From NCBI GenBank assembly GCA_000004695.1, contig CM000151.3, positions 1,440,001 through 1,504,000 on the forward strand: DNA of 64,000 nucleotides, in the 5' to 3' direction. Position numbers and translations under genes: made by a program. This document shows positions 37,294 to 49,629 of this stretch, one piece after another; positions within the stretch are counted from its first letter, which is position 1; every line of letters starts with the position of its first letter. The DNA comes from Dictyostelium discoideum. Taxonomy: Eukaryota. The notes under the pieces were generated by a model. The model was not told where the DNA came from. It saw only the letters and a list, made by a program, of their open reading frames with translations, and searched no databases.

Positions 37294-39498
37294 ATGGATT
37301 CCATGTTAAATTCAAAAGTTTTTTATGGTTTAAAATCTGAAGAATCTAATAAAAATAATAATAACAATAACTATATTAATAATAATTACTATGGTAATAA
37401 TAACAATAATAACAATAATAATGTAAATAACAATAATAATAAAATTAAAAAACAACAAAATAGTGAAAATGATAGAATTATTGGGTTAGATAAATTTATT
37501 CAAGATTTTGATATGTTTGATATTAATACTGGTAAAGTTATATCATGCGATCATTCACCACCAAAGTTTGAACCTTCATTACGTTGGAATACTGGTATAA
37601 ACTATGAAATGGAACAACATCAACAACAAATTCATAAATCAATTAATAATATTGAAACTTTAATAGAAGAATCTGAAAAACTTCAACAATGGAATCTTTA
37701 TCAACAACAACAACAGCAACAACAACAACAACAACAACAACAACAACAAAAATTACAATCACCATCACAACAATCACAAATTCAACAAAACAATTTATTA
37801 TTACAACAACAACAAATTCAATTACAAAAACTACAACAAGAACAAAAACAATTAGAATTATTAAGATTACAAGAACAACAACTAACCGAAAAGCAACAAC
37901 AATTAATTCAAAAAGATAAAGAAAGAAGACAAAAAGAAATATTATTACAACAACAACAACAACAACAACAGCAACAACAACAAAAAGAAGAGAATGAATC
38001 ATTTGAAAAACAACAAATCAAATTTGAAAATCAATTAAAAGTTGAAAGAAAAGAAAGAGAGGATAAAGAAAGAGAGGATAGAGAAAGAAAAGAAAAAGAA
38101 GAGGAAGAGAAAGAGAAAGAGAAAGAAAAAGAGAAATTATCTACAATTGTTGAATGTAAAGATATGAGTACAACAGCTAAAATCAATCAATTACAACATT
38201 ATGTTAATGAAAGATTTGAAATATCATGTATTAAATTCTATACGTTAATGATTGATAGTGATTTTTGGGCATATGTTAGTAAAGAGTGTGGATTTTTAGA
38301 TATGAAAGAAAGTGAATGGGTTACATCAGAGAGTTGTTGTCATCAAGAGAGAACTTTAAATTTCAAAACTCCAATCTCTTTTAAAATCGGTCCAAAAGTT
38401 GCCACTGTTCAACAAACTCAAAAGATTAGGAGAACTCCAACCAATGGCTATGTAATGGAGACTAGTTCCCTCTCAAAGGATGTACCCTATGGTGATAGTT
38501 TTTCAGTGGAAAACTATCTCACACTCGAACCTTGTCCAGAGTCACCACAAGATTCTTGTATCTTAAAAGTTTCAACTGCTGTTAAATTCATCAAATCAAT
38601 TTGGGGTCTTGGTGGTTTAATTGAAAAAACTGTCACTCAATCAAATAAAGAATTCTTTGCTTGTTGGATTAACTTTGCAAAGAAAAGAATATCTGATCAA
38701 GCTTCAATACCTGAAACTTTAACTTCTGTTGTAACTTTAATTACAACTTCAACAATGATTCCACCACCACAACAAGAAAAACAACAACAACAACAACAAT
38801 CATCGCCAATAATTTGTAATAATAATAATAATGAAATTCAAAATGTAAATAATATTGTAAATAATAATAATAATAATAATATACAAGCAAAGACACCACA
38901 ATTAAAATCACCAATTTTATCACAACCACAACAAGATAATATTAAAAATAATAATAATAATAATAATAATAATAATAATAATAATAATAATAATAATAAT
39001 AATAATAATAATAATAATAATAATAATAATAATAATAATAATAATAATAATATACAAGGAAGTATATCAACATTACAATATGAAGAAATTAAAAAGATAT
39101 TTTATAAATTATATAAAGAAATGAATGAAGAGAAAGAGGAACAAAAAGTTGTTAAAATATTTTCAGTTAAAAAGAGTCAACACCTTTGTAATTTAACAGT
39201 ATCTTCAAAACAAACATTATCTTATTTAGCACAGTTTTTAATACCACAAATGTTTCCACAATTGGGTAGAGGTCAACATTTTGAATTATATTGGATAGAT
39301 AAAAGAAATGAATATTGTCAAGTATTTTACAAAGATTTGGACCAACTCATATTCTCATTTATTTGTAATTTAGATGTATTTGGTATTCAAACATTAACTG
39401 AACAACAAGCCTCTACAAAATTATTAACTTTTGTCATTTCAAAATCTGGTGAAAATGCAAATATTTGTTATAATTCAAATATTGATAATTCTTTTTAA
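37294..39498 (+). CDS. VASt-domain protein (the lipid-transfer domain found in GRAM-domain proteins), 734 aa, with poly-Gln/poly-Asn tracts and an E/K-rich repeat
   Basis: The VASt-like block is ERFEISCIKFYTLMIDSDFWAYVSKECGF...ERTLNFKTPISFKIGPKVATVQQTQKIRR...SSLSKDVPYGDSFSVENYLTLEP...ILKVSTAVKFIKSIWGLGGLIEKTVTQSNKEFF. It is paralogous to the same block in the 46394..49629 gene. I saw no GRAM domain and no transmembrane segment. Confidence 0.6.
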   Translation: MDSMLNSKVFYGLKSEESNKNNNNNNYINNNYYGNNNNNNNNNVNNNNNKIKKQQNSENDRIIGLDKFIQDFDMFDINTGKVISCDHSPPKFEPSLRWNTGINYEMEQHQQQIHKSINNIETLIEESEKLQQWNLYQQQQQQQQQQQQQQQQKLQSPSQQSQIQQNNLLLQQQQIQLQKLQQEQKQLELLRLQEQQLTEKQQQLIQKDKERRQKEILLQQQQQQQQQQQQKEENESFEKQQIKFENQLKVERKEREDKEREDRERKEKEEEEKEKEKEKEKLSTIVECKDMSTTAKINQLQHYVNERFEISCIKFYTLMIDSDFWAYVSKECGFLDMKESEWVTSESCCHQERTLNFKTPISFKIGPKVATVQQTQKIRRTPTNGYVMETSSLSKDVPYGDSFSVENYLTLEPCPESPQDSCILKVSTAVKFIKSIWGLGGLIEKTVTQSNKEFFACWINFAKKRISDQASIPETLTSVVTLITTSTMIPPPQQEKQQQQQQSSPIICNNNNNEIQNVNNIVNNNNNNNIQAKTPQLKSPILSQPQQDNIKNNNNNNNNNNNNNNNNNNNNNNNNNNNNNNNNNNNIQGSISTLQYEEIKKIFYKLYKEMNEEKEEQKVVKIFSVKKSQHLCNLTVSSKQTLSYLAQFLIPQMFPQLGRGQHFELYWIDKRNEYCQVFYKDLDQLIFSFICNLDVFGIQTLTEQQASTKLLTFVISKSGENANICYNSNIDNSF

Positions 39499-39555
39499 AA
39501 AAAATAACAAAAAAATGTGATAAATAAATTAAAAAAAAAGATTAATTTGTTTATT

Positions 39556-49300: not shown

Positions 49301-49629
49301 CATTGATACTATTAGATTCTAGAGTAAATTCATTGGCAACACAAACTCCACCAGATGATGGTAAAGTAGTATACACTTCAAATATTGGTAAAGATAGAAT
49401 TACCGCTTTAAGAGATCGATTAGAATTGGCAAATTCCTTATTGATGAGAGCTCAAAGTATGGTCTCAACACTCCAAGCCGAATTATCATTAGAGGATATG
49501 AAATCTACAAGATTCGAAAATTATAATTATGAAAATAACAATAGTAGTGGTTTATTTGGTCCTATATTTCTTACAATATTAATTGCCTCTGCTTCTATTG
49601 TTTTTTATAAATTTTATTTAAATAAATAA
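46394..49629 (+). CDS. GRAM-VASt sterol/lipid-transfer protein of the Aster/GRAMD1/Lam(Ysp2) type, about 1023 aa, with a C-terminal transmembrane anchor. Three exons: 46394..46472, 46551..46651 and 46738..49629.
   Basis: The GRAM domain is split over exons 1-3: MKMTVKDDSQFHLLFTSLPLDEKLIE|EYTCSYNEGAAVSIGKLYISQQHVSYASKIGSTH|IILPIKDIISISKKNSVYLFPNAIEIINQKDHKYFFSAFLSRDLAFATL. The VASt block reads ...ISISEFYQLICRTDFWGSV...DFRTAISFKIGPKSTRVYQTQRCKLK...STSVSKDVPYGDAFSVENLLVVQ...KIKFTKSVWGLSSMIQKTALQGNKEFF. Hydrophobic segments are GILAGVFFLFLSLLIGLTIGIV and, at the C-terminus, LFGPIFLTILIASASIVFY. Introns have donors GTAAAT at 46473 and GTAATT at 46652, and acceptors ttttag at 46549-50 and tttag at 46736-37. 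The intron phases (1, 0) are self-consistent. Confidence 0.7.

What the first reader, a model, noticed from the sequence alone, without database searches (positions are those of the whole stretch)
37294..49629. Two paralogous VASt-domain genes 8 kb apart, one a GRAM-VASt-TM protein and one VASt-only
Both plus-strand genes contain a roughly 190-aa block with shared landmarks: FKIGPK, SKDVPYGD(S/A)FSVEN, K(F/I)(I/T)KS(I/V)WGL and NKEFF. This fits the VASt lipid-binding domain of Aster/GRAMD1/Lam sterol transporters. The downstream gene also has an N-terminal GRAM domain split across two mini-exons and C-terminal transmembrane helices, which is the full ER-anchored architecture. The upstream gene has only VASt, plus poly-Q and an E/K repeat, and has no membrane anchor. 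That points to a duplication followed by loss of targeting domains. A soluble VASt-only protein would be unusual.
Basis: partly seen in the sequence, partly recalled or inferred. Interest (0 to 1): 0.6.

Follow-up and report, generated by a model that had tools for sequence, protein, structure and literature searches.

The report
Anchored and soluble sterol-carrier gene pair
A social-amoeba genome segment carries an ordinary membrane-anchored sterol-transporter gene and, 7 kb upstream, an ancient soluble paralog that has no membrane-targeting parts but has a previously unremarked ubiquitin-like domain.

Summary
Both plus-strand genes carry a Pfam VASt domain (E 1.8e-31 and 2.1e-27), 41% identical over 179 aa. 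The downstream gene, spliced from three exons, also has a GRAM domain (E 3e-17) and two C-terminal hydrophobic helices. That is the LAM/Aster/GRAMD1 architecture. The upstream gene has no GRAM and no membrane helix, and there is no coding room for either nearby.

The interpretation needs two corrections.

1. The pair is not a recent local duplicate. Each paralog forms its own clade with members across Dictyostelia. The 7-kb linkage is seen only in the window and in D. firmibasis.
2. The upstream protein is not "VASt-only". All orthologs share an N-terminal motif of about 35 aa (DFDMFDIxTGKIISC) and a C-terminal domain of about 140 aa. That domain models confidently (pLDDT 86) as a ubiquitin-like beta-grasp fold. 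It has no Pfam or PDB sequence match. An exhaustive HMMER search of 1.84 billion proteins found it in four proteins, three of them traced to dictyostelid genomes.

VASt, beta-grasp domain and motif are all under strong purifying selection (dN/dS 0.04-0.07).

The upstream gene is most likely a cytosolic sterol carrier or sensor targeted through protein contacts. "VASt alone" proteins in Amoebozoa were catalogued in 2014. Interest is modest: a new variant of a known kind.

The parts
37294..39498 (+). Gene 1: intronless CDS of 734 aa encoding a soluble protein with N-motif, VASt and beta-grasp domain
   Evidence: ORF list. Pfam VASt. Orthologs P0001-P0004. No hydrophobic segment.
37489..37602 (+). 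Conserved N-terminal motif, aa 66-103 (DKFIQDFDMFDINTGKVISCDHSPPKFEPSLRW)
   Evidence: Invariant DFDM.DI..G..ISC in the orthologs. Also found upstream of the annotated starts in A. subglobosum and C. fasciculata. dN/dS 0.07. No Pfam match. Not a GRAM relic.
37639..38139 (+). Poly-Q and E/K-rich tract, aa 116-282, specific to this lineage
   Evidence: Present in the window and D. firmibasis. Absent or unrelated in T. lacteum and P0003.
38140..38703 (+). VASt (StARkin) lipid-binding domain of gene 1, aa 283-470
   Evidence: PF16016 E 1.8e-31. 65-69% identical across dictyostelid orthologs. dN/dS 0.038. The model of ortholog P0003 matches Aster-A, GRAMD1C, Lam4 and Lam2 structures.
38704..39075 (+). 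Low-complexity linker (poly-N, Q-rich), aa 471-594
   Evidence: Not conserved. dN/dS 0.73.
39076..39495 (+). C-terminal domain with a ubiquitin-like beta-grasp fold, aa 595-734
46394..46472 (+). Gene 2 exon 1, aa 1-26 and the first base of codon 27, start of the GRAM domain
   Evidence: GT donor and in-frame splice. Same intron position in C. fasciculata.
46551..46651 (+). Gene 2 exon 2, the rest of codon 27 to aa 60, middle of the GRAM domain
   Evidence: AG acceptor and GT donor. The spliced product gives GRAM PF02893 at E 3.1e-17.
46738..49629 (+). Gene 2 exon 3, aa 61-1023. It holds the rest of GRAM (to 46887), low-complexity linkers, VASt, and TM1-loop-TM2.
48121..48690 (+). VASt domain of gene 2
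   Evidence: PF16016 E 2.1e-27. 41% identical to the gene 1 VASt. dN/dS 0.027.
49180..49245 (+). Predicted transmembrane helix 1 (GILAGVFFLFLSLLIGLTIGIV)
   Evidence: KD19 peak 2.55, conserved in P0005 and P0006. Coordinates checked.
49246..49551 (+). Conserved loop of about 100 aa between the two helices, luminal if both helices span the membrane (inferred)
   Evidence: Conserved in C. fasciculata and D. purpureum. dN/dS 0.15 for the TM1-loop-TM2 region.
49552..49608 (+). Predicted transmembrane helix 2 (LFGPIFLTILIASASIVFY), followed by the 6-residue tail KFYLNK
   Evidence: KD19 peak 2.15, conserved in orthologs. Coordinates checked.

Best explanation
The window comes from a group-4 Dictyostelium. 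Its closest sequenced relative in the database is D. firmibasis, at synonymous divergence of about 0.5. It carries two ancient paralogs of the LAM/Aster/GRAMD1 (VASt/StARkin) lipid-transfer family.

Gene 2 is the canonical form: GRAM, long disordered linkers, VASt, then two hydrophobic helices. By homology it most likely sits in the ER membrane, uses its GRAM domain to contact another membrane, and uses its VASt pocket to move sterol between the two.

Gene 1 descends from a duplication that predates the radiation of Dictyostelia. It keeps a strongly constrained VASt domain. It has no GRAM domain and no anchor. It carries two modules that, among the sequences retrieved, occur only in dictyostelids: a short N-terminal motif and a C-terminal beta-grasp (ubiquitin-like fold) domain. 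It is most likely a cytosolic, diffusible sterol or lipid carrier or sensor. Its location or partners would be set by protein-protein contacts through the beta-grasp domain and the N-terminal motif rather than by a lipid-sensing GRAM domain and a membrane anchor.

Shown here: domain content, absence of an anchor, paralogy, age of the split, purifying selection, and the beta-grasp fold prediction. Inferred: sterol as the ligand, ER residence of gene 2, the carrier role of gene 1, and a targeting role for the beta-grasp domain.
For: - VASt is present in both genes, and GRAM only in gene 2.
- Gene 2 and its orthologs have two hydrophobic helices. Gene 1 and its orthologs have none.
- A profile of the dictyostelid VASt domains hits GRAMD1A (E 4.7e-18), Aster-C, Ysp2, Lam4 and an Arabidopsis C2-GRAM protein in PDB.
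- The AF2 model of gene 1 ortholog P0003 matches sterol-bound Aster-A, Lam4 and Lam2 structures, with target-normalised TM-scores of 0.6-0.72.
- In the NJ tree each paralog clade has 100% support and the two are sisters at 99.5%.
- Gene 1 orthologs were traced to Dictyostelium, Tieghemostelium, Acytostelium and Cavenderia. My placement of these genera in the four major dictyostelid groups is from memory.
- dN/dS against D. firmibasis: VASt 0.038, beta-grasp 0.038, N-motif 0.072, linker 0.73. For gene 2: VASt 0.027, GRAM 0.074.
- The domain is lineage-restricted.
- The gene 1 VASt is somewhat closer to mouse Asters (27-29% identity) than the gene 2 VASt is (20-23%). It is therefore not a decaying copy.
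Against: - There is no experimental or expression evidence for either gene. Literature searches found no study of these Dictyostelium genes.
- Ligand identity is inferred from homology only.
- At the C-terminal-helix position that aligns with a Gly in Aster-A, gene 2 orthologs have Gly and gene 1 orthologs have Ser (QSNK[DE]FF). Mouse Aster-C also has Ser there and has been crystallised with sterol-like ligands. Mutation of a conserved Gly in this helix abolishes sterol binding in Lam4 (PMC4463742). Whether that is the same position was not verified.
- The beta-grasp assignment rests on a model built from only 5 sequences. The Foldseek E-values are weak (best 0.018).
- The outgroup sampling for the tree is thin because two of the three homolog searches returned almost nothing.
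Confidence: 0.72

Rival explanations
1. Gene 1 is a simple local duplicate of gene 2 that was truncated to a bare VASt domain plus low-complexity sequence, and it may be drifting towards loss of function.
For: The two genes lie 6.9 kb apart on the same strand. They share 41% identity in VASt. Gene 1 lacks GRAM and TM.
Against: - dN/dS is 0.04 in VASt.
- Orthologs 65-69% identical occur across Dictyostelia.
- Two further conserved modules exist.
- Linkage is absent in T. lacteum, A. subglobosum and C. fasciculata.
Confidence: 0.04
2. Gene 1 does not carry lipid. It is a regulatory or sensor protein in which ligand occupancy of the VASt pocket controls what the beta-grasp domain and N-motif bind. 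Partners could include a small GTPase, the ubiquitin/proteasome or p97 machinery, or gene 2 itself through VASt or coiled-coil contacts.
For: - Beta-grasp domains of the RA/RBD, PB1, UBX and UBL classes are interaction modules. The fold hits include Ras-binding domains, PB1, and USP7 and TBCE UBLs.
- The N-motif is strongly conserved.
- A Gly-to-Ser difference sits in the C-terminal helix.
Against: - The VASt domain is at least as conserved as that of the anchored paralog, and it keeps the family landmarks.
- Aster-C also has Ser at that position.
- Nothing identifies a partner.
- Sensor and carrier roles are not mutually exclusive.
Confidence: 0.2
3. Gene 1 is membrane-associated after all, through exons missed here or through a motif such as FFAT that docks it onto ER VAP proteins. 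On this reading it is functionally a normal contact-site LAM.
For: The acidic, aromatic N-motif DFDMFDI superficially resembles an FFAT-like motif (read directly from the sequence).
Against: - No 7-mer in QDFDMFDINTG has both an aromatic residue at FFAT position 2 and an acidic residue at position 4. This rests on my own knowledge of the EFFDAxE consensus, not on a scored test.
- There is no coding space upstream or downstream.
- Independent gene models in three other species also lack GRAM and TM.
Confidence: 0.06

Closest known systems
LAM/Ltc (yeast Ysp2/Lam2, Lam4) and Aster/GRAMD1a-c (mammals): ER-anchored sterol transfer proteins
   Same: Gene 2 has the same order of parts: an N-terminal GRAM (PH-like) domain, VASt/StARkin, then a C-terminal membrane anchor. 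Both VASt domains match this family by Pfam, by a PDB profile search and, for the gene 1 ortholog, by predicted fold.
   Different: Gene 2 has two predicted helices that bracket a conserved loop of about 100 aa, rather than one TM plus a short luminal tail. It also has very long low-complexity linkers. Gene 1 lacks both GRAM and anchor, so it does not have the family's defining anchoring to a contact site.
"VASt alone" architectures catalogued by Khafif et al. 2014 (PMC4082322) in Amoebozoa, stramenopiles and ciliates
   Same: Gene 1 has VASt as its only Pfam-recognisable domain. The 2014 sample included D. discoideum.
   Different: That catalogue is Pfam-based. In the passages I retrieved by term search, it does not mention the conserved N-motif or the C-terminal beta-grasp domain. 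No function was assigned.
STARD4/5/6: soluble START-only sterol carriers of mammals
   Same: The likely mode of action is similar: a cytosolic helix-grip lipid-binding domain with no membrane anchor that can diffuse between membranes. This comparison rests on my knowledge of the family and was not tested here.
   Different: They belong to a different branch of the StARkin superfamily (START, not VASt). STARD4-6 are essentially a bare domain, whereas gene 1 has additional conserved modules and long linkers.
Ubiquitin-superfold interaction domains (USP7 and TBCE UBLs, RA/RBD, PB1, FERM F1)
   Different: There is no sequence-level relationship to any of them. The domain has an N-terminal helix and a C-terminal helix plus beta-hairpin extension. 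It has no C-terminal Gly-Gly, so it is not a conjugatable modifier. The subclass is unassigned.

Membership tests
LAM/Aster/GRAMD1 (VASt/StARkin) family | VASt domain detected above Pfam's gathering score | tested here: met
   Gene 1 scores 109.9 bits and gene 2 scores 96.8 bits, against a cut-off of 27.
LAM/Aster/GRAMD1 (VASt/StARkin) family | Helix-grip fold that superposes on solved Aster and Lam sterol-binding domains | tested here: met
   Tested on gene 1 ortholog P0003, which is 65% identical to gene 1 in VASt. The top 20 Foldseek PDB hits are all Aster-A, GRAMD1C, Aster-C, Lam4 or Lam2, with target-normalised TM-scores of 0.6-0.72 for the significant ones. Domain pLDDT is only 70-83. 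Gene 2 was not modelled.
LAM/Aster/GRAMD1 (VASt/StARkin) family | N-terminal GRAM/PH-like domain | tested here: met
   This row is for gene 2: PF02893 at E 3.1e-17 on the spliced product.
LAM/Aster/GRAMD1 (VASt/StARkin) family | N-terminal GRAM/PH-like domain (gene 1) | tested here: not met
   No GRAM in gene 1 by Pfam, even at E up to 10. tblastn of GRAM against the window hits only gene 2. The N-motif profile against the GRAM profile gives an hhalign probability of 0.1%.
LAM/Aster/GRAMD1 (VASt/StARkin) family | C-terminal transmembrane anchor | tested here: met
   This row is for gene 2: two segments with KD19 peaks of 2.55 and 2.15, conserved in orthologs. This is a hydropathy scan only. 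No dedicated TM predictor was available.
LAM/Aster/GRAMD1 (VASt/StARkin) family | C-terminal transmembrane anchor (gene 1) | tested here: not met
   The maximum KD19 is 1.23 in gene 1 and 1.06-1.31 in its four orthologs. The stop codon lies 58 bp from the neighbouring gene.
LAM/Aster/GRAMD1 (VASt/StARkin) family | Small residue (Gly) in the C-terminal helix, needed for sterol binding (Lam4 G1119, Ysp2 G1205; PMC4463742) | tested here: inconclusive
   At the column aligned with the Aster-A Gly (WSGIEDYF), gene 2 orthologs have Gly (QGNKEFF). Gene 1 orthologs have Ser, as does mouse Aster-C. Equivalence of this column to Lam4 G1119 was not verified.
LAM/Aster/GRAMD1 (VASt/StARkin) family | Binds and transfers sterol, and localises to ER contact sites | not testable with these tools
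   Requires biochemistry and imaging.
Ubiquitin-like beta-grasp superfold (gene 1 C-terminal domain) | Beta-grasp topology | tested here: met
Ubiquitin-like beta-grasp superfold (gene 1 C-terminal domain) | Sequence membership in a described UBL, RA, PB1 or UBX family | tested here: not met
   No Pfam hit at E up to 10 beyond noise. No PDB sequence hit better than E 0.17.
Ubiquitin-like beta-grasp superfold (gene 1 C-terminal domain) | C-terminal Gly-Gly for conjugation | tested here: not met
   The protein ends in ...NSNIDNSF.
FFAT-motif VAP clients | EFFDAxE-like core with an aromatic residue at position 2 and an acidic residue at position 4, in an acidic tract | tested here: not met
   By inspection of QDFDMFDINTG, no register satisfies both positions. 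The consensus is recalled from memory and no scoring tool was run.

The most novel reading that the evidence does not exclude
The soluble paralog may represent a previously undescribed way of deploying a LAM-family sterol-transfer domain. Instead of a GRAM lipid sensor plus an ER anchor, a dictyostelid-specific beta-grasp domain (RA/RBD-, PB1- or UBL-like) and a short N-terminal motif would recruit the VASt domain to a protein partner, such as a small GTPase or a ubiquitin-binding factor. Sterol transfer would then be switched on at particular membranes, for example phagosomes or macropinosomes, by signalling rather than by membrane lipid composition.
Probability: 0.2. Interest if true: 0.55.

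Novelty: new variant of a known kind. Interest (0 to 1): 0.33.

Why it matters
[quoted passage not shown] The characterised members I know of are membrane-anchored and are targeted by a GRAM or PH-like domain.

Gene 1 is a soluble VASt protein kept under strong selection since before the sampled dictyostelid lineages diverged, and it is fused to a beta-grasp interaction domain. That offers a tractable test, in a genetically easy phagocyte, of whether VASt domains can work as diffusible carriers or sensors, and of what replaces membrane anchoring.

Gene 2 is an ordinary ortholog. Its main value is as the in-genome control.

Practical by-products are corrected gene models:
- The C. fasciculata ortholog is split into two gene models.
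- The A. subglobosum model lacks its N-terminal motif.
- Gene 1 orthologs are labelled only "VASt domain-containing".

Tried and rejected
1. **GRAM exon upstream of gene 1.** Rejected. tblastn finds none and the 1.1-kb intergenic region has no coding-like frame.

2. **N-terminal motif as a relic of the GRAM domain.** Rejected. hhalign gives a probability of 0.1%.

3. **N-motif as an FFAT or LIR motif.** No register fits by inspection. This relies on consensus motifs recalled from memory.

5. **Intramolecular docking of the N-motif.** The full-length model of P0003 gives a low-confidence hairpin (pLDDT 30-40) and no usable information.

6. **Broad homolog collection for a proper phylogeny.**
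   - The first word-indexed search was swamped by low-complexity words and returned 6 hits.
   - The profile search returned one metagenomic fragment.
   - The VASt-only query returned nothing.
   - No non-dictyostelid amoebozoan sequences were obtained. The tree uses mouse Aster-A and Aster-C segments copied from the alignments as outgroups.

7. **Exact-sequence look-up of both window proteins.** Neither is in the collection, so the species could not be named.

8. **AFDB fold search.** It was meant to find the D. discoideum entry, but the library was unavailable.

9. **Literature.** No study of these Dictyostelium genes or of a VASt-plus-ubiquitin-like architecture was found.
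Full report
**Source and setting.** The window is 15-30% G+C and its genes are full of poly-N and poly-Q tracts. The best database relative of gene 1 is a Dictyostelium firmibasis protein (90% identity in the global alignment). Gene order around both genes is identical in that species. The window is therefore from a group-4 Dictyostelium. Neither protein is in the searchable collection as an exact sequence, so I cannot name the species.

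**Observation.**
- Gene 1 is an uninterrupted ORF at 37294-39498 (+), 734 aa. Pfam finds one domain, VASt PF16016, at E 1.8e-31 over aa 303-449.
- Gene 2's long ORF (47266-49629) has VASt at E 2.1e-27.
- Reading upstream, an ATG at 46394 opens a 79-nt exon ending at a GT. An AG-GT bounded exon follows at 46551-46651. A third exon starts after an AG at 46738 and runs in frame to 49629. The product is 1023 aa.
- The first 250 aa of that product give GRAM PF02893 at E 3.1e-17 over aa 10-110.
- The spliced N-terminus aligns almost residue for residue with the annotated GRAM-VASt proteins of C. fasciculata and D. purpureum. tblastn shows the first intron at the same codon in C. fasciculata.
- A 19-residue Kyte-Doolittle scan finds two hydrophobic segments in gene 2 (aa 875-896 and 999-1017). 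The same two occur in its orthologs. None occurs in gene 1 or its four orthologs.

- The GRAM domain used as a tblastn query hits only 46394-46902 in all 64 kb.
- The 1091 bp between the divergently transcribed upstream gene (start codon at 36202) and the gene 1 ATG hold no open frame longer than 54 AT-rich, low-complexity codons.
- Gene 1's stop lies 58 bp from the 3' end of the next gene, which is on the minus strand.
- Independent annotations in D. firmibasis, T. lacteum and A. subglobosum also carry only VASt.

The soluble, GRAM-less architecture is real and is not a gene-model artefact.

An alignment of gene 1 with its orthologs shows three conserved blocks separated by non-conserved low-complexity sequence.
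1. An N-terminal motif, DFDMFDIxTGKIISCxxSxPxxExSxxW (aa 66-103). tblastn also finds it upstream of the annotated starts in A. subglobosum and C. fasciculata.
2. The VASt domain, 65-69% identical across the family.
3. A C-terminal domain of about 140 aa (aa 595-734).

**The C-terminal domain.**
- It has no Pfam match and no PDB sequence match.
- A profile of it, run with HMMER against all 1.84 billion cluster representatives, finds only four proteins. Three were traced to dictyostelid genomes, and I did not trace the source of the eukprot homolog P0003, which has the same architecture.
- One of those hits, P0008, is a 145-aa C. fasciculata gene model. It lies immediately downstream of, and collinear with, a model that contains the N-motif and VASt. 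The gene is therefore split in that annotation.
- AlphaFold2 on the 5-sequence alignment gives mean pLDDT 86.4. The order of elements is a helix, two strands, a helix, three strands, a short helix and a final hairpin.
- Foldseek gives only weak E-values (best 0.018), but again only UBL, Ras-binding, PB1 and FERM-F1 domains.

I therefore call it a beta-grasp domain of unassigned subclass, with extensions. It ends in ...DNSF, not Gly-Gly, so it is not a conjugatable modifier.

**Is gene 1 functional?** Nei-Gojobori estimates against D. firmibasis (dS about 0.5) are listed below.

| Region | dN/dS |
|---|---|
| Gene 1 VASt | 0.038 |
| Gene 1 beta-grasp | 0.038 |
| Gene 1 N-motif | 0.072 |
| Gene 1 linker | 0.73 |
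| Gene 2 VASt | 0.027 |
| Gene 2 GRAM (exon 3 part) | 0.074 |
| Gene 2 TM1-loop-TM2 | 0.15 |

The two genes are equally constrained in their domains.

**Fold and family of the VASt domains.**
- A profile of the dictyostelid VASt domains hits GRAMD1A (E 4.7e-18), Aster-C, GRAMD1C, yeast Ysp2 and Lam4, and an Arabidopsis C2-GRAM protein in PDB.
- The AF2 model of the compact ortholog P0003 has a VASt region at pLDDT 70-83. Its best Foldseek matches are sterol-bound Aster-A, GRAMD1C, Aster-C, Lam4 and Lam2, with target-normalised TM-scores of 0.6-0.72.
- At the C-terminal-helix column aligned with a Gly of Aster-A, gene 2 orthologs have Gly. Gene 1 orthologs have Ser, as does mouse Aster-C.
- A conserved Gly in this helix is required for sterol binding in Lam4 and Ysp2 (PMC4463742). 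I did not verify that this is the same column.

**History.**
- In an NJ tree of VASt domains with 200 bootstraps, the gene 1 clade and the gene 2 clade each have 100% support. They are sisters at 99.5%, relative to a metagenomic VASt fragment and mouse Aster-A/C.
- Each clade contains distant dictyostelids, so the duplication predates the common ancestor of the sampled Dictyostelia.
- The gene order VASt-beta-grasp / minus-strand gene / RF-1 / minus-strand gene / Rab / GRAM-VASt-TM is shared with D. firmibasis.
- The other paralog is not within 10 kb in T. lacteum, A. subglobosum or C. fasciculata, where the two genes are on different scaffolds.
- The present proximity is therefore either a relic kept only in group 4 or a coincidence. 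It is not evidence of a recent event.
- GRAM-VASt-TM is the architecture in animals, fungi and plants, so loss of GRAM and TM in gene 1 is the parsimonious direction. I could not obtain other amoebozoan sequences, so this remains an inference.

**Mechanism.**
- Gene 2 is a canonical LAM/Aster-type protein. By homology it should be ER-anchored and should move sterol at contact sites. Its two-helix anchor bracketing a conserved loop of about 100 aa is a local variation.
- Gene 1 is best read as a cytosolic sterol or lipid carrier or sensor. Its targeting has shifted from lipid sensing plus anchoring to protein-protein contacts through the beta-grasp domain and the N-motif.
- Mammalian STARD4-type soluble carriers are a functional analogy. 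This comparison is from my own knowledge and was not tested.
- The ligand, the localisation and the partners are all untested.

**Novelty.** Khafif et al. 2014 already list "VASt alone" proteins in Amoebozoa, with D. discoideum in their sample. Public annotations call the orthologs "VASt domain-containing protein". I found no report of these Dictyostelium genes or of a VASt-plus-ubiquitin-like architecture.

**Verdict.** Gene 2 is an ordinary ortholog. Gene 1 is a lineage-restricted architectural variant of a known family, and is of modest interest.

Noticed in passing
window 43407-44595 (+), about five exons: A Rab-like small GTPase gene (Pfam Ras E 1.7e-24 on one exon). It has an N-terminal MCNCGSSG and, as read from the sequence, a C-terminus ...GLLSNEGNN with no Cys prenylation motif. 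A Ras/Arf-family gene is the same-strand upstream neighbour of the GRAM-VASt-TM gene in D. firmibasis, D. purpureum and C. fasciculata. This adjacency is therefore conserved more widely than the VASt-VASt linkage.
   Followed up: partly
window 49180-49608 (+): The anchor of gene 2 is two hydrophobic helices bracketing a conserved, helix-prone loop of about 100 aa. The final tail is only 6 residues. It is not the single C-terminal TM usually drawn for LAM/Aster proteins. The arrangement is conserved in C. fasciculata and D. purpureum.
   Followed up: partly
L007 4544-6537 (C. fasciculata GL883017.1); L005 9566-9682 (A. subglobosum): These look like annotation errors in public genomes. The C. 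fasciculata VASt-beta-grasp gene is split into a 430-aa and a 145-aa model. The A. subglobosum model P0004 starts downstream of the conserved N-terminal motif, which tblastn finds about 320-435 bp upstream of its annotated start.
   Followed up: partly
window 40927-41670 (+): A two-exon gene with an RF-1/GGQ domain (SGAGGQNVNK), resembling an ICT1-like peptidyl-tRNA hydrolase with an N-terminal Ser-rich presequence. It lies between the two VASt genes, and the same position is occupied in D. firmibasis.
   Followed up: no
window 35387-36202 (-) and 39556-40371 (-): Two minus-strand genes of exactly 271 aa flank gene 1, each with a hydrophobic N-terminus that looks like a signal peptide. The upstream one matches DUF6748 (E 2.2e-9). 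The downstream one has no Pfam match. I did not test whether they are related to each other.
   Followed up: no
window 20001-26000: This stretch has higher G+C (0.29-0.33) and strong positive GC skew (up to 0.41) with negative AT skew, unlike the rest of the window. I did not examine it.
   Followed up: no
(tool behaviour): The word-indexed homolog search returned almost nothing for the clean VASt profile and for the VASt-only query. The low-complexity full-length query had found six relatives. As a result the amoebozoan sampling in the tree is thin.
   Followed up: no
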